From assembly GCA_951406725.2 (NCBI GenBank), contig OX597827.1, forward strand, positions 10,478,001 to 10,542,000: 64,000 bases of DNA, read 5' to 3'. A program made the translations under genes and the position numbers. Under the pieces are notes generated by a model. The model saw only the letters and a list, made by a program, of their open reading frames with translations, did no database searches and was not told where the DNA came from. This stretch comes from Octopus vulgaris. Taxonomy: Eukaryota. Of this stretch, positions 1 to 61,137 are shown piece after piece. Position 1 is the first letter of the stretch. Every line of letters starts with the position of its first letter.

Positions 1-750
1 AAGAATCACTTGAAACCTCACCCTTGTATTGTCTTCTTTATTTATTTTGGTGATGTATAACAATTTACATTTGTATCTAATAAGGTCTAATACATATGAA
101 GGGACAAAAATAAATTTCTGAGAATTAGACAGAAGAATCACTTGAAACCTCACCCTTGTATTGTCTTCTTTATTTATTTTGGTGATGTAAAACAATTTAC
201 ATTTGTATCTAATAAGGTCTAATACATATGAAGGGACAAAAATAAATTTCTGAGAATTAGACAGAAGAATCACTTGAAACCTCACCCTTGTATTGTCTTC
301 TTTATTTATTTTGGTGATGTATAACAATTTACATTTGTATCTAATAAGGTCTAATACATATGAAGGGACAAAAATAAATTTCTGAGAATTAGACAGAAGA
401 ATCACTTGAAACCTCACCCTTGTATTGTCTTCTTTATTTATTTTGGTGATGTAAAACAATTTACATTTGTATCTAATAAGGTCTAATACATATGAAGGGA
501 CAAAAATAAATTTCTGAGAATTAGACAGAAGAATCACTTGAAACCTCACCCTTGTATTGTCTTCTTTATTTATTTTGGTGATGTATAACAATTTACATTT
601 GTATCTAATAAGGTCTAATACATATGAAGGGACAAAAATAAATTTCTGAGAATTAGACAGAAGAATCACTTGAAACCTCACCCTTGTATTGTCTTCTTTA
701 TTTATTTTGGTGATGTAAAACAATTTACATTTGTATCTAATAAGGTCTAA
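1..750. repeat. Tandem satellite, 132-bp unit, at least 5.7 copies (runs off window start)
   Basis: Unit AAGAATCACTTGAAACC...GAGAATTAGACAG starts at 1, 133, 265, 397, 529 and 661. Copies are identical except for an alternating GTATAA/GTAAAA site. Confidence 0.97.
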
Positions 751-1186
751 CAGCAATCTAAAAATTTAATTGATGGGAAAATTAATATTTTAACTAGGCT
801 AAATAACAGGCATAGTCTTTTATGGTACTACAGTAAAGAAAGTAAAAGAGAAAATAATATATTTCTAATCAGTATGTAAACATTTTCAAACAATAAAAGG
901 TCTTAAGATCAAATACTTAAATCTAGCGCTGACATATGACAGCATTGCTGCCAAATCCTACATTAAAACTAAGCTTCTTTGTTTGCATCCAGTTATATTT
1001 ATTGATCATTGAACTTGTTTTTAACCCTCTTGATACCAGTCTGCCCAAGAAATCTCATACTTCATGATACAATTTCACAGTCTTAAAGTGGTCTAAATTA
1101 AGAGTTTCCATTAAATTTTCATCTTAATTTTTGCTTGAAACACCTGCTTGATAATGATGCTGGTATTTTATTAAATTCTCTATATA

Positions 1187-2897: not shown

Positions 2898-3376
2898 TAA
2901 AAAATAAAAAATATTTTCAAAATTCATTGAAACAATGGAGGTGTACATTAATAAATATATAACAAATGTATTTAAAATAACAAATTTGATAAAATATTTT
3001 AAGGTCGTTATCTTTATTGTTAATGTTAACCAAATAATTTTATATATTTAACTGGTTATCCTGTCAAACATCTAATGACATCTATACTGACCATCGGTGT
3101 TCACAAATTGGTAATGACATCTCTCTAAAATAAATCACCATGGTCATACAAAAGAGAACCTAAAAAAGTCATTGGTCCAGATCCTTTGTACTATGAAAAT
3201 AAAAATAAATAAATCTAGTTAAATGGTGATGCACTGAATATTGGGTGCAAAAAAAAAGTGTTGCATTTTCTTGGAATTAATTGCCTTCATATTTAGAGAA
3301 AGAATAAAAAAAACATTAATTGCAAGAGACACTTGATGAAAAGGAGTGATAATTTCAAGAAATTAATAATTATTTT

Positions 3377-3761
3377 GCAGTGTGGAAGGTATTTGTAAGC
3401 CATTTAAGAAACACACAAAAGCCGTTCGATTCACTTCAACATTTAAGTTTAATTTGTCAAAATATTTTCGTCGCTATAAGACCGCGACCTGTTCACTGAC
3501 AAAAATCCGTGCCGCATCTCTGATTGTGGTTGGCTTCTGTCCACAGTAATGGATTTAGTACGGATTTTTGTCAGTGAACAGGTCGCGGTCTTATAGCGAC
3601 GAAAATATTTTGACAAATTAAACTTAAATGTTGAAGTGAATCTAACGGCTTTTGTTTATTTTCTTAAATGGCTTACAAACACCTTCCATGCTGCAATTGT
3701 TTTTGTTTCCGCACACGATCTCAGATCAAATCACTTGCTATGCAAGTACATCTCCATAATA
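3377..3761. mobile_element. Penelope-like fold-back element (asymmetric inverted repeat with one-sided tail)
   Basis: Arms ~3375-3510 and 3560-3696 are near-perfect inverted copies, with a 49-bp spacer and a ~60-bp right extension. A 12-bp direct repeat AATAATTATTTT lies at 3365-3376 and 3762-3773. The arms contain a hammerhead-like fold. Confidence 0.7.
3567..3617 (+). ncRNA. Putative minimal type-I hammerhead ribozyme, G3-C8 core variant (mirror copy on - strand at 3453-3503)
   Basis: Order: stem I TTTGTCA, core GTGAACA, extra G, stem II GTCGC/GCGAC, GAAA, palindromic stem III AATATT, U17, stem I partner TGACAAA. Confidence 0.6.
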
Positions 3762-4746: not shown

Positions 4747-5378
4747 CGAGCCCTTCTGGGTATTAGCGCGCGTCTACGATGAGTCTACGATTTAAAAAAC
4801 AATTACCATCATATTTTTCCATTTTAATGCATTTTTTTCGCTTTTATATAAGGGAAGTAACTCTCTAAAAATATCTACGATGTGTCAACGATTTAAAGAA
4901 AAATTTACCTTAATTTTTTTTCAATTTTTAATGCATTTTTTTGCTACTTTTTGGCTATAACTCTCTAAAAATGCTTATATAGTTATTTCCCTTACAAACC
5001 CGAGCAACGCCGGGCGATACTGCTAGTAATTTATATAAATATGAAACGAACTTAAGGGCAATAATTCAAATGAGCCAGTTGTATGAATTTAGATAATTAC
5101 ATTAAAGGATGACGATAATTAGATTAAAGTATGTTGTATACATAAATTTCTTAATGAATTGAAGTTTTGCCTTCATTTAATGAAAGTTTGAAAGGAAATA
5201 AAATTTTAGTGGCAAAGGGGTATAATTTTAAGAACACAACTATTAATTACTCTAGTTAATTTACAAGCTAAATGTAAAAAGAGTTCTTGTCTTTTAAAAA
5301 TAATGGAGGAACATAGTCATAACTAAGGTATTCATGAAATCCAGGATTTTAACTCTCAATGAGACATCATTTATCATA

Positions 5379-9250: not shown

Positions 9251-9875
9251 TTTACGAAGTGATTTAGAACAGAAAAATGCAAAAATGCGTGCCTGACAAC
9301 TTTTAAAATAAACCATATCAAATTTATTCTATTTCCTGAAACTACTTAAAAAAAATCGCTGTTCCTTTTGTGTTCACATCATGTATGACAGAAAAATGAA
9401 AAAAAAAGAACATCGAAGAAAGGTGTAATATAACTTTTAAATTGAATGGGAAACAAATGCTGTAAGGTGATACAAAATTGCACAAAGGAAATTACAATCC
9501 TCATAGAGATATAGACTGATTTCCTTTGTGTCTTTCACCGAATTTAATGATCATCATTAGATAAAATGAATAAAGATGGGTTTTTCATAACTATCTTATT
9601 TAGGCATTCAATCAGTGTTATAGTTTTGTCAGATCATGGCACCATGTTAATATAATCTTAACTTAAATTACATTTGAGATTTGTCATATAGAAAGCATAT
9701 CAAAAGTTTGTTACATTGTAATGGGATTTTGTCGTAGCATAAGAATATAGTAAAAGAAAACCAGGTGACTGTTAACGTAGGTTGTTTATAAGTTATTTTT
9801 GATCACATCAAAGGTGCTTTTGAGAAGTGGTTTCTGCTTTTGTCTCAGTAAATGATAACTTTTGAGTGGAATTTG

Positions 9876-10310
9876 GACAAACAAGGACATACAAATGGAT
9901 TAAGTTGATTATATCGACCCCAGTGCGTAACTGGTACTTATTTAATTGAGCTGGCAGAAACGTTAGCGCGCATGGCGAAATGCGTAGCCGTATTTCGTCT
10001 GCCGTTATGTTCTGAGTTCAAATTCTGCTGAGGATGACTTTGCCTTTCATCCTTTCGGGGTCAATAAATTAAGTACCAGTTATGCACTGGGGGTCGATGT
10101 AATTGACTTAATACCTGTGTCTGTCCTTGTTTGTCCCCTCTATGTTTAGCTCCTTCTGGGTAATAAAGAAACAGGTACTTATTTAATCGACCCCGGAAGG
10201 ATGAAAGGCAAAGTTGACCTTGGTGGAATTTGAACTCCAGGACGTAGCAGCAGACGAAATACCGCAAAGCATTTCGCCCAGCGTGGTAACGTTTCTGCCA
10301 GCTCACCGTC
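9876..10310 (-). mobile_element. SINE B interrupted by a second SINE B in opposite orientation (inner 9947-10173, +)
   Basis: The inner copy is flanked by the 14-bp TSD GGTACTTATTTAAT (9933-9946, 10174-10187), which is outer-copy sequence. Confidence 0.88.
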
Positions 10311-12049: not shown

Positions 12050-12514
12050 ACTTTTAGAAAATTTTCAATTTATTACGTTTATATATTTGTTGTGCAAGAT
12101 TTTTTATGTGAAGTCGTGTGTTGAAACAGATATTGTTATATTTCGGAATGGTCATTTTGCCAGTTTAGCCAATAAAAACACACGCACTATATAATTGATG
12201 TTATTTTGCTTCAGTGTTATTTATTTTTTACATTAATCTTAATCTTATTTCAGCCAGAGTTCTTTCGTCACACTCCTGTGACCGCATCAAAATACAAAAT
12301 GGCTGATGGTTAGTAAGGAGAGACACAAATAAGAAAGAAGAAAACAAAGGACCACTGATGCGGTCACAGGAGTGTGACGAAAGAACTCTGGCAGAAATAA
12401 GATTAAGATTAATGTAAAAAATAAATAACACTGAAGCAAAATAACACCAAATATATAGTGCCTGTGTTTTTATTGGCTAAACTGGCAAAATGACCATTCC
12501 GAAATATAACAATA
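12050..12514. mobile_element. Second Penelope-like fold-back element
   Basis: Inverted arms 12131-12289 and 12356-12514, 66-bp spacer, and a left-side extension (left boundary approximate). A hammerhead-like motif sits at the inner end of the right arm. Confidence 0.68.
12352..12391 (+). ncRNA. Putative minimal type-I hammerhead ribozyme, A9C variant
   Basis: CCA-CTGATGC-G-GTCACA(GGAG)TGTGAC-GAAA-GAACT-C-TGG. Stem I is CCA/TGG, stem II is 6 bp, and the cleavage triplet would be CUC. Confidence 0.55.
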
Positions 12515-12596
12515 AATTCAGTTTATTAGTTTCAACGATTTGGCCTGTAGGTACTGTAAAGTTTCGAATCATTACATTTTCTTCCTCTGTTACAAC

Positions 12597-28478: not shown

Positions 28479-28861
28479 TCTCTCTCTATATAAACGGCAG
28501 TTTGTCTGTGCATGTTTCTGTGTGTCTGTTTGCTTGTACCCTCACCCTGACCACGGTTTTCAACCGATTCTGATGAAACTTGACACGCACATAGCCCAAT
28601 GTCATAATTCAAAACTAACGCAGCGAAAATTTTGAAAAGTTCCCCCAGTTCTGAACAAAATCGATAAATTCGACATGGGGTCGAGAATCATAAACACAAA
28701 CCACAAACTGTCTAGGGGACGCAACTCGACCTTTTTTAATTAAAAAAAAAATTACCATCATTTTTTTCCCATTTTTTTGCTATTTTTTGGCTATAACTCT
28801 CTAAAAATGCTTTATAGTTATTTCCCTTACAAACCTGAGCAACGCCGGGCGATACTGCTAG
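28479..28861 (+). mobile_element. Non-autonomous Helitron
   Basis: A|TC start; ends CCTGAGCAACGCCGGGCGATACTGCTAG|T. Confidence 0.82.
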
Positions 28862-28963
28862 TGTAAACTAAAAGTCAAGTATTTTTCTGCAGTCTGTGGA
28901 AGGATTGGTAGAACGATTAGAGCGTGAGACAAAATGCCTTGTGGTATTTACTTTATATCCTAA

Positions 28964-29361
28964 CTAGCAGTATCGCCCGGCGTTGCTCGGGTTTGTAAGG
29001 GAAATAACTATATAAGCATTTTTAGAGAGTTATAGCCAAAAATAGCAAAAAAATGCATTAAAAATGGAAAAAAAATTATGGTAAATTTTTTTTTAAATCG
29101 TTGACTCATCGTAGACATTTTTAGAGAGTTACTTCCCTTATATAATAGCGAAAAAAATGCATCAAAATGGAAAAAAATGCTGGTAAATTATTTTTAAAAT
29201 CTTAGACTCATCGTAGACGTGCACTAATACCCAGAAGGGCTCAATATGAATCACAACTATAAGATACCCACTTTTGGTTACGCTGCACTGCAAAATGTGG
29301 GAGTAGTTAGGAATCTAAATCGTAGGAGACAGACACACAACTTCACTTTTATATATAAAGA
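28964..29361 (-). mobile_element. Non-autonomous Helitron inserted in an old SINE B2-like copy (~28900-29500)
   Basis: On the - strand: A|TCTTTATATATAAAAG start and the same hairpin and CTAG|T end. The flanks rejoin into a SINE B-like head and body. Confidence 0.82.
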
Positions 29362-45447: not shown

Positions 45448-45714
45448 TCCAGCATCGGCCACGATCGGTTGGAGCTTTTAATGTGCCAGCGGCACGGAAG
45501 CCAGCCAAGGCGGCGCTGGCAACGTTCGGATGCTGCTTTTTATGTGCCACCGGCACAGAAGCCAGTCAGAGCGGCGCTGGCATTGGCCACATTCGGATGG
45601 TGCTTTTTATGTGCCACCGGCACAGAAGCCAGTCGTGGCGGTGCTGGCATCGGCCACGTTCGGATGGTGCTTTTTATGTGCCACCGGCACAGGCATCACA
45701 ACTACTATTTCCAT
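45448..45714 (-). mobile_element. Family C module array (4 units), inverted
   Basis: GGTGCTTTTTATGTGCCACCGGCAC repeated with a ~62-66 bp period. Confidence 0.85.
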
Positions 45715-45894
45715 TGCTACACTAACTACCAATGTACCTATTTATCCACTGTCTTTATCCATAATTACCATGACTCCTGTATAGCATCTTAAGATGTTAA
45801 TGGAGGTGACAAAAACTGTAGAAGTGAAAGAGTTAACCAAGGAAATATACATATGTCTGTGAGTGTATTTACACACACACATAAATATATATAT

Positions 45895-46161
45895 GGCCAA
45901 TGCCAGCACTGCCTTGACTGGCTTCCGTGCCAGTGGCACATTAAAAGCACCAACTGATCGTGACTGATGCCAGACTCCCCTGGCACCTGTGCTGGTGGCA
46001 CGTAAAAAGCACCCACTACACTCACGGAGTGGTTGGCATTAGGAAGGGCATCCAGCTGTAGAAACACTGCCAGATCAGACTGGAGCCTGGTGCAGCCCTT
46101 GGCTTCCCAGACCCCAGTCGAACCGTCCAACCCATGCTAGCGCGGAAAACGGACGTTAAAC
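45895..46161 (+). mobile_element. Family C 3' end
   Basis: Consensus match ending GAAAACGGACGTTAAAC. Confidence 0.85.
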
Positions 46162-54357: not shown

Positions 54358-54388
<31 letters not shown>

Positions 54389-54559
54389 CATATATACGAC
54401 AGGCTTCTTTCAGTTTCCATCTACCAAATCCACTCACAAGGCATTGGTCGGCCCGGGGCTATAGCAGAAGACACTTGCCCAAGATGCCACGCAGTGGGAC
54501 TGAACCCGGAACCATGTGGTTGGTTAGCAAGCTACTTACCACACAGCCACTCCTGTACC
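54143..54559 (-). mobile_element. SINE A, full length
   Basis: Consensus match. Confidence 0.92.
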
Positions 54560-54580
54560 TATATACAAAATTTATTAAAA

Positions 54581-54810
54581 GGCGGCGAGCTGGCAGAAAC
54601 GTTAGCACGCCGGGCGAAATGCGTAGCCATATTTCGTCTGTCGTTACGTTCTGAGTTCAAATTCCGCCGAGGTTGACTTTGCCTTTCATCCTTTCGGGGT
54701 CGATAAATTAAGTACTAGTTACACACTGGGGTCGATGTAATCGACTTAAACCATTTGTCTGTCCTTGTTTATCCCCTCTGTGTTTAGCCCCTTGTGGGTA
54801 GTAAAGAAAT
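54581..54810 (+). mobile_element. SINE B, full length (reference copy)
   Basis: GGCGGCGAGCTGGCAGAAACG..GAGTTCAAATTCC (B-box-like), with 16-bp TSD TATATACAAAATTTAT (54560-54575, 54812-54827). Confidence 0.92.
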
Positions 54811-55239
54811 ATATATACAAAATTTATATCACGTGGGGCTAACTTTGTATTTAATCTCAAAAGATTTAATAAAATAGCCAGTTTGTTCTGATGTCAGTGC
54901 AATTATATGCCATCTTCTTCGACAAAATTGCGACCTTATAACTATGTAAAAAAAAATCAATATGTTACAGCTATTCTGTTATTTAACATTCTACTATGTC
55001 AGGTACAGAGATTAAATATCTGTTTCAGCAATATATTGTAACGAATTTCAAGTCAGACCATCCTCAATAATTAGTCCTCAGCAGAGCTGAGAGAACCACC
55101 ATGTGGTTGTTACAGATGCTGGAAGTAGTTGCTTAATCCCCATCATATCGCAACTTATTTACTGGTCATTAAAAGGAAGTACATGTTCTACAATGAAATT
55201 TCAGATAAACAAAGAACAAAAATAAATAATAATGATGAT

Positions 55240-55407
55240 GCGCAGGAGTGGCTGTGTGGTAAGTAGCTTGTTTACCAACCACATGGTTCCGGGTTCAGTC
55301 CCACTGCGTGGCACCTTGGGCAAGTCTCTTCTACTATAGCCTCGGGCCGACCAAAGCCTTGTGAGTGGATTTGGTAGACGGAAACTGAAAGAAGCCCATC
55401 GTATATA

Positions 55408-55498
<91 letters not shown>

Positions 55499-59782: not shown

Positions 59783-60252
59783 TATGTAGAAATATAATTA
59801 TTTTCATATATTTCCCAGGCGAGACATTGCTACAAACTAAAGGTTGAAACAGCCTATTAACCTTAGATTCTGTGTTGTTTGTACTATACAATAACATGAA
59901 AACTAAAATTTATTAGTCCAGTTAACATTTGCTATTAAATTATACATAAACATAAGGCACAAAGAGATTGAACATAATTAACCGGCAAGCCAGAGAACTG
60001 AACTGGAATCTATTCAACTGCAAACCAATTAAATATGAAACACAGTTGTTTGTTGTTTGGTTTTGTTGTTTCAGTTCACCTAATGTAAACCAAAACAGTA
60101 TCTTAATTCTTCATCATAACTTTGAACAAATTATTTAATATTAAGCTATTCAATTTCAAGCAACTCACTTCTCGTACCCAGACAATAGCATGAATGGTAT
60201 ATGTTTGTATGTTTATAGTTAATGTGCTCATCGAGTAATTAACATGCAATGT

Positions 60253-60647
60253 ATGGTAAGTAGCTTGCTAACCAACCACATGGTTCCGGGATCAGTCCCT
60301 CTGCATGGCATCTTGCGCAAGTGTCTTCTGCTATAGCCCCGGGCCGACCAATGCCTTGTGAGTGGATTTGGTAGACGGAAACTGAAAGAAGCCCGTCGTA
60401 TATATGTATATATATATATGTATGTGTGCGTTTGTTTGTGTGTCTGTGTTTGTCCTCCGAACATTGCTTGACAACCGATGCTGGTGTGTTTACGTCCCTG
60501 TCACTTAGCGGTTCGGCAAAAGAGACTGATAGAATAAGTACTGGGCTTACAAAGAATAAGTCCCAGGGTCGATTTGCTCGACTAAAGGCGGTGCTCCAGC
60601 ATGGCCGCAGTCAAATGACTGAAACAAGTGAAAGAGTAAAAGAGTAA
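60253..60647 (+). mobile_element. SINE A (slightly 5'-truncated)
   Basis: Consensus match. Confidence 0.92.
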
Positions 60648-60734
60648 TACCTGAGTAAAAGTCAATATGATCCATCACAAACTCAGCTGAGAAGAAAAGC
60701 TTTGATTATCAGAAAACTTCAAGTGTTGAAACTG

Positions 60735-61137
60735 TTTACTCTTTCACTCTTTTACTTGTTTCAGTCATTTGACTGTGGCCATGCTGGAGCACCGCCTTTA
60801 GTCGAGCAACTCGACCCCGGGACTTATTCTTTGTAAGCCCAGTACTTATTCTATCGGTCTCTTTTGCCGAACCGCTAAGTGACGGGGACGTAAACACACC
60901 AGCATCGGTTGTCAAGCAATGCTAGGGGGACAAACACAGACACACAAACACACACACATACATATATATACATATATACGACAGGCTTCTTTCAGTTTCC
61001 GTCTACCAAATCCACTCACAAGGCATTGGTCGGCCCAGGGCTATAGCAGAAGACACTTGCCCAAGATGCCAAGCAGTGGGACTGAACCCGGAACCATGTG
61101 GTTGGTTAGCAAGCTACTGACCACACACCCACTCCTG
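60735..61137 (-). mobile_element. SINE A
   Basis: Consensus match, tail-to-tail with 60253-60647. Confidence 0.92.

What the first reader, a model, noticed from the sequence alone, without database searches (positions are those of the whole stretch)
12050..12514. Unrelated second fold-back element with the same ribozyme architecture (CUGAUGC-G core)
Seen: 159-bp inverted arms with no evident similarity to the 3.4-kb element outside the motif, yet the same fold at the same relative position: CCA-CUGAUGC-G-GUCACA(GGAG)UGUGAC-GAAA-GAACU-C-UGG. Both elements have an extra G before stem II and a GUCRC/GYGAC stem. The left-arm copy is truncated at U4, so only one strand has the full motif. Inference: two families sharing a non-canonical junction suggest a lineage-specific hammerhead subclass in non-autonomous Penelope-like retroelements.
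Basis: partly seen in the sequence, partly recalled or inferred. Interest (0 to 1): 0.75.

Follow-up and report, generated by a model that had tools for sequence, protein, structure and literature searches.

The report
Penelope hammerhead with swept core mutation
This fold-back is a short, truncated copy of a known kind of jumping gene (a Penelope-like retrotransposon) with the small self-cutting RNA motif such elements normally carry; the one oddity is that most copies of the family, including an intact full-length one, have a changed core letter that likely weakens cutting, which would suggest the element spreads without needing it.

Summary
The sequence is as described (159-bp arms, 97.5%; hammerhead-shaped motif, cut predicted after 12388), but the interpretation mostly fails. 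The element is the end repeat (pLTR) of an autonomous Penelope-like retrotransposon: a full-length copy has tandem pLTRs around an intact 1,309-aa RT/GIY-YIG frame. The fold-back and its 56-nt tail are the standard truncated, inverted insertion form. The extra nucleotide before stem II is the published consensus of Penelope minimal hammerheads. The 3.4-kb element does not share the core: it reads GUGAACA-G, with canonical A9. What remains unusual is C9. It is the family majority (3,735 pattern hits; 51 of 61 unbiased copies) and sits in the intact copy, while older subfamilies and a sister family keep A9. C9 is therefore a derived change that spread with the youngest burst, not decay of this copy and not a shared subclass. 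Copy 5' ends show no pile-up at the cut site. Cleavage is untested. I found no natural A9C Penelope hammerhead in print, but the key variant survey (Lunse 2017) was not readable. No earlier scan note matched this sequence.

The parts
12290..12514 (+). Plus arm: 5'-truncated pLTR, from 99 nt before the predicted cut to the inner 3' end (about +127)
   Evidence: Aligns to the 5' pLTR of full-length copy L300 over 225 nt; 3' ends of 98 arms fall at two sites
12074..12289 (-). Minus arm: inverted pLTR copy starting at U4 and running through the tail
   Evidence: boundary at 12074 from depth jump and loose ends
12074..12130 (-). About 56-nt tail present on one arm only; in the full-length copy it is the start of the ORF
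12352..12391 (+). Minimal type I hammerhead motif: stem I CCA/UGG, core CUGAUGC, extra G, stem II 12363-12378, GAAA, GAAC, U16.1, C17; cut predicted after 12388
   Evidence: cleavage not tested
12361..12361 (+). Position 9: C in place of the canonical A; family majority, A in older subfamilies
12362..12362 (+). Extra nucleotide between 9 and 10.1 (G; published consensus is A, C or U)
   Evidence: 62 of 63 arms covering the site; PMC4209133 Fig S3 text
12490..12514 (+). ATG and first codons (MTIPKYNN) of the RT/GIY-YIG frame, 102 nt after the predicted cut
   Evidence: L300 frame starts here
12064..12075 (+). Likely target-site duplication, left copy
   Evidence: 11 of 12 match to 12517-12528; 0.8% of 5,000 shuffles reach this; no empty site seen
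12517..12528 (+). Likely target-site duplication, right copy
3375..3760 (.). Comparison element (3.4 kb): fold-back of a separate, short, ORF-less family with core GUGAACA-G (G3-C8 swap, A9, palindromic AAUAUU)

Best explanation
This 441-bp fold-back is a 5'-truncated, inverted-pair insertion of the end repeat (pLTR) of an autonomous Penelope-like retrotransposon, and its motif is that group's known minimal hammerhead with a family-wide A9-to-C change that likely weakens self-cleavage without stopping the element from spreading. Shown: the two arms match the pLTR of a full-length copy with an intact RT/GIY-YIG frame; arms end at two fixed 3' sites about 56 nt apart; C9 is the majority state and A9 marks older subfamilies and the sister family. 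Inferred from the Anolis element work: the element's protein nicks both strands of AT-rich DNA and reverse-transcribes from two internal RNA sites, so two short cDNAs joined at their truncated ends would give the fold-back with a tail on one side. Inferred: C9 arose in one source lineage and rode its burst because uncut RNA is a sufficient template.
For: Full-length L300: 1,309-aa open frame beginning in the 5' pLTR, YVDD, C-x4-C-xx-C linker, GIY-YIG-type end; C9 in all 3 of its pLTRs. 35% identity over 794 aa to P0088, which scores Pfam GIY-YIG above cut-off. 3' ends of 98 arms: 63 at +120 to +133, 35 at +177 to +186. C9 pattern 3,735 hits vs 11 control; exact family 28-mer with non-C at 9: 306 hits, first 100 listed 70 A, 30 T, 0 G by my count. 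Arms picked on a sequence outside the motif: 51 C, 7 A, 3 T of 61. Median distance to own majority: C9 2.2%, A9-GGAG 3.7%, A9-GAAG 6.9%, sister family B (A9) 16%. Endonuclease-region tree of 30 copies: 4 of 5 A9 copies sit together on long branches at about 85% identity to L300. 5' starts at the cut site 2 vs 1.25 expected; 65 of 98 arms run through it. In vitro, Anolis PLE hammerhead mutants insert normally (PMC11167929). In a type III hammerhead scan, mutants of the CUGA-turn region other than the C3/G8 swap had low activity (PMC9901934; no value for A9C seen).
Against: No cleavage data, and no measured rate for A9C was found. The rest of the core is slightly better kept than flanks even in this mostly C9 sample (3/565 vs 154/9,489 after dropping CpG and subfamily columns; P=0.036, copies not independent), and the youngest subfamily changed C17 to U17, staying within the UH rule; both fit continued function. 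The pLTR tree has little internal support and C9 also occurs on older backgrounds, while one A9 copy lies inside the C9 radiation. A direct Pfam scan of the L300 frame gave 0 families at E<=1. Absence of starts at the cut is also expected if cut RNA is re-ligated.
Confidence: 0.62

Rival explanations
1. C9 with the extra G is a working alternative core: the extra G or the element's protein makes up for the lost A9, and cleavage still processes the tandem transcript or its 5' UTR.
For: C9 is in the intact full-length copy and in four runs of four organism labels, where A is 13-30% of summed contig depth at 12361. All other core positions stay; U17 keeps the UH rule. Stem I stays paired across families A and B (92.9% of cells, A-U to G-C change). 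The Anolis PLE hammerhead needs protein to cut (PMC11167929).
Against: A9 in all 56 metazoan representatives of PMC4209133 Fig S3 as read from the PDF text and in the sister family. The 15.2-16.2 segment GAAC is not palindromic (duplex +1.4 kcal/mol). The covariation score is not beyond shuffles (89 of 500). No 5' starts enriched at the cut.
Confidence: 0.2
2. The motif is already vestigial in the whole family (A9 and C9 alike); it is kept for another role such as promoter, protein-binding or translation control, and position 9 is neutral.
For: Non-palindromic loop III in both A9 and C9 subfamilies. A6-U7-G8 opens a 19-codon upstream frame in which C9/A9 is synonymous. Minimal PLE hammerheads cut poorly in vitro (PMC4209133).
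Against: Family B keeps the hammerhead layout with stem I changes and a near-palindromic loop, and lacks the AUG at that place.
Confidence: 0.14
3. One reading: two unrelated non-autonomous families share a lineage-specific hammerhead subclass defined by a CUGAUGC-G junction.
For: Extra G and GUC/GAC stem II base occur in this family, family B and the 3.4-kb family.
Against: The 3.4-kb family has A9 (22 of 22); this family is autonomous; the extra nucleotide is the published consensus and GUC-started stems are common in Fig S3; an extra-A family has 5,721 hits in the same genome.
Confidence: 0.04

Closest known systems
Minimal hammerheads (min-HHR) of metazoan Penelope-like elements (Cervera and de la Pena 2014, PMC4209133; read: main text parts 1-3 of 4, supplement text parts 1-2 of 3)
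   Same: Type I layout in the pLTR, extra nucleotide between 9 and 10.1, G10.1-C11.1, long helix II, short helix I, vestigial helix III, opposite-strand pairs close together.
   Different: C at position 9 (A in all 56 listed), extra nucleotide G (consensus H; G in 1 of 56, Nasonia), non-palindromic GAAC.
C-terminal EN+ PLEs of the Neptune/Nematis type (as described in Craig et al. 2021, PMC8557442; passages read)
   Same: Single ORF RT then GIY-YIG, CX2-5CxxC linker, partial tandem pLTRs, inverted 5'-truncated copy, one-sided tail, (TA)n targets.
   Different: Tail about 56 nt rather than 30-40; long Asn-rich stretch in the N-terminal part; clade not tested by phylogeny.
PAc, Poseidon element of Anolis carolinensis (Frangieh et al. 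2024, PMC11167929; main-text section read)
   Same: Hammerhead in the pLTR near the ORF start, two fixed 3' ends defining the tail, no sign of ends at the cut site.
   Different: Here the ORF starts 102 nt after the cut, not inside stem II; PAc was tested in vitro, this element was not.
Animal non-LTR retrozymes (bioRxiv 10.64898/2026.07.22.740005; part 1 of 5 read)
   Same: Type I hammerhead in a PLE-derived repeat.
   Different: Retrozymes are ORF-less tandem units; this family is autonomous and this copy is an inverted pair.

Membership tests
EN+ Penelope-like element | Single ORF with RT and C-terminal GIY-YIG | tested here: met
   1,309-aa frame in L300 with YVDD and VYSIRC...TYVGET; 35% to P0088, Pfam GIY-YIG E 6.6e-7. 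Direct Pfam scan of the L300 frame found nothing.
EN+ Penelope-like element | Tandem pLTRs flanking the ORF, often with an inverted truncated copy | tested here: met
   L300 has two direct and one inverted pLTR; L298, L299, L301 inverted pairs.
EN+ Penelope-like element | One-sided 3' tail | tested here: met
   Two end sites, 63 and 35 of 98 arms.
EN+ Penelope-like element | Bias to microsatellite or AT-rich targets | tested here: met
   Many copies run into (TA)n; seen by eye, not counted against a control.
Neptune/Nematis clade | CX2-5CxxC linker before GIY-YIG | tested here: met
   C-x4-C-xx-C in L300; motif definition.
Neptune/Nematis clade | Placement in an RT phylogeny with reference elements | not tested
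   No named reference PLEs were held.
PLE minimal hammerhead | Core C3 U4 G5 A6 N7 G8 ... G12 A13 A14 A15.1, U16.1 H17 | tested here: met
   6 substitutions in 627 cells over 10 core positions.
PLE minimal hammerhead | A9 | tested here: not met
   C in this copy and 51 of 61 arms; A in 7.
PLE minimal hammerhead | Unpaired nucleotide between 9 and 10.1, with G10.1-C11.1 | tested here: met
   identity is G, outside the H consensus.
PLE minimal hammerhead | Palindromic 15.2-16.2/loop 3 for dimer formation | tested here: not met
   GAAC leaves two A-A mismatches.
PLE minimal hammerhead | Location in the pLTR | tested here: met
PLE minimal hammerhead | Compensatory changes in stems | tested here: inconclusive
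   98.1% of cells paired, 1 pair with two-sided change; not beyond shuffles; stem II was fixed by the search pattern.
PLE minimal hammerhead | Self-cleavage 3' of H17 | not testable with these tools
   Only contigs were served; they cannot show RNA ends.
Non-autonomous retrozyme | No coding capacity, tandem short units | tested here: not met
   Family has an intact ORF.

The most novel reading that the evidence does not exclude
The A9-to-C change is a selected down-tuning or rewiring of the Penelope hammerhead: it spares full-length RNA (or works only with the element's protein), and that let the C9 lineage outgrow its A9 relatives several-fold. The A9 and C9 subfamilies would then be a natural in-genome experiment on what Penelope ribozymes are for.
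Probability: 0.18. Interest if true: 0.6.

Novelty: new variant of a known kind. Interest (0 to 1): 0.3.

Why it matters
The role of hammerheads in Penelope-like elements is open: they may process the RNA or merely ride along (Craig et al. 2021), and in vitro they were dispensable for insertion (Frangieh et al. 2024). Here a core change spread through thousands of copies and an intact source-type copy, beside older A9 relatives that differ by one core letter. That gives a cheap, direct test. It also shows that searches demanding CUGANGA miss the majority of this family. The architecture itself is ordinary.

Tried and rejected
Rfam: whole-window scan was swamped by microsatellite miRNA hits (150 of 277 rows shown, no hammerhead among them); the 225-nt scan found no hammerhead. 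Pfam found nothing in three PLE frames or in the L300 frame. MITE or DNA-transposon reading of the inverted arms: rejected, as the arms have unequal outer ends and match a retroelement pLTR. Starts of truncated copies at the cut site: not enriched. RNA evidence: no RNA holder listed; only contigs served. Empty-site check: the left junction is present in X1, X3 and X4 and no empty site was seen, so polymorphism is untested (X1 may be the source). Autonomous partner for the 3.4-kb family: none in 37 and 30 loci; the few hits to the L065 protein were not linked to the element. L342 was fetched and not analysed. The pLTR tree left out 7 of 86 rows with under 170 aligned bases and 2 loci that failed the pattern. 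Literature searches for A9C or natural position-9 variants gave nothing relevant. Not held: Lunse 2017, Hammann 2012, Arkhipova 2017 and one recalled id for Nelson and Uhlenbeck 2008; Lunse's variant tables may already hold this variant. That an extra G is harmful in a viroid hammerhead (De la Pena and Flores 2001) and that A9 pairs with G12 are recalled, from no call.

Full report
Observation. The inverted arms are real: 12131-12289 pairs with 12356-12514 at 97.5%. The plus strand carries CCA-CUGAUGC-G-GUCACA(GGAG)UGUGAC-GAAA-GAACU-C-UGG with C17 at 12388. A relaxed descriptor finds three such motifs in the window and none in 20 shuffles. The other two are the arms of the 3.4-kb element. Its core is GUGAACA-G: the G3-C8 swap, which is active in vitro (PMC9901934 passages; PMC11167929), with a normal A9. 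The two elements share the extra G and a GUC/GAC stem base, not the CUGAUGC core.

What the element is. A search of the own genome (2.8 Gb; the closest named protein is from Octopus vulgaris at 93%) returned many copies at 93-99% (40 of 127 candidates scored). Longer copies extend upstream into a coding region with YVDD and a GIY-YIG-type end. Locus L300 holds a full-length copy: 5' pLTR, an open 1,309-aa frame starting 102 nt after the predicted cut, a 3' pLTR, and a third inverted pLTR. The frame is 35% identical over 794 aa to P0088, which scores Pfam GIY-YIG, although Pfam does not hit the L300 frame directly. The C-x4-C-xx-C linker matches the Neptune/Nematis description; clade was not tested by phylogeny. 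The family is therefore autonomous.

Why it folds back. In 98 arms picked on a 27-mer outside the motif (98 of the first 100 places of 6,993), 3' ends fall at two sites, 63 near +127 and 35 near +183 from the cut. The window copy uses both: the plus arm ends at the inner site, the minus arm carries the 56-nt tail. Inverted 5'-truncated copies and one-sided tails are standard for PLEs, and the Anolis element nicks both strands and starts reverse transcription at two internal sites that define the tail. Applying that mechanism here is inference. A 12-bp near-duplication flanks the insertion (11 of 12, P=0.008); no empty site was seen.

The junction. Cervera and de la Pena list as features of metazoan PLE hammerheads an unpaired nucleotide between 9 and 10.1, long helix II, short helix I, and pairs on opposite strands 100-700 bp apart. 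Their consensus is CUGANGAH; all 56 rows have A9 and one has an extra G (read from PDF text). The same genome has a family with extra A and a palindromic end, 5,721 pattern hits. The extra nucleotide is thus not new, and G is one option here.

C9. The C9 pattern has 3,735 hits against 11 for the reversed control; the 100 listed are all this family. The exact 28-mer with another base at 9 has 306 hits: 70 A, 30 T, 0 G in the first 100 by my count. T fits CpG decay; A marks real subfamilies with linked diagnostic changes. In the unbiased arms, 51 of 61 are C, 7 A, 3 T. In four public runs with four organism labels, A is 13-30% of summed contig depth, which is not a copy number. A9 groups are older (3.7% and 6.9% from their majority vs 2.2%), and sister family B (16%) has CUGAAGA-G. 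In an endonuclease-region tree of 30 copies, four A9 copies group on long branches and one lies among C9 copies (midpoint-rooted). The pLTR tree is poorly resolved inside the family, and C9 also occurs on older backgrounds. Taken together C9 is most likely derived and carried by the youngest burst, including the intact copy.

Does it still cut? Unknown. Against: A9 belongs to the conserved core (PMC3088659 passages); loop III is not palindromic; in this copy C9 and a C-to-A change at 12393 favour a competing hairpin, though typical C9 and A9 copies both fold stems I and II; 5' starts are not enriched at the cut (2 vs 1.25) but cluster at -105 to -91 (9 vs 3.1, P=0.005, window chosen after seeing the data). 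For: the rest of the core is slightly better kept than flanks (P=0.036, non-independent copies); a young subfamily has U17 (26 of 65 arms), still UH; stem I stays paired between families A and B, though covariation is not beyond shuffles. Anolis hammerhead mutants insert normally in vitro, so a weakened motif need not block spread.

Novelty. The element type, the fold-back and the junction are known. A family-wide C9 in an active PLE was not found in searches, but Lunse et al. 2017, the large variant survey, could not be read. Earlier notes on this genome concern permuted hammerheads in Naiad and Hero elements, a different motif; look-ups by sequence, place and words found nothing on this family. 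Verdict: new variant of a known kind, interest 0.3.

Noticed in passing
L300 (G000:C1:59392400-59402000, minus strand): Full-length tandem copy with an intact 1,309-aa RT/GIY-YIG frame; C9 and U17 in all three pLTRs.
   Followed up: yes
L065:1504-4200: An 899-aa open frame of a different RT-type element with about 281-bp direct repeats (1196-1475, 4844-5124), nested in an older copy of this family; no Pfam hit.
   Followed up: partly
window 3375-3760: Short (about 210-nt) ORF-less family with a fixed 5' start about 25 nt before a G3-C8-swapped core and a one-sided tail; thousands of pattern hits. A natural G3-C8 core in a high-copy family may deserve its own look.
   Followed up: partly
L302-L311 and 5,721 places: Textbook minimal hammerhead family CUGANGA-A with a GGCUG/CAGCC stem II.
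   Followed up: no
pLTR, -105 to -91 from the cut (window about 12284-12298): Cluster of 5' starts, including this copy; possibly the pLTR transcription start.
   Followed up: partly
window 12358-12417: A6-U7-G8 opens a 19-codon upstream frame in which C9/A9 is synonymous; absent in family B.
   Followed up: partly
window 60250-61127, 54376-55422, 28770-29055, 9875-10305, 45452-46013: Other fold-back repeats, some of abundant families (D19, D20); no linear hammerhead found by my descriptor.
   Followed up: no
window 1-828: 132-bp tandem repeat, about 6 near-identical units.
   Followed up: no
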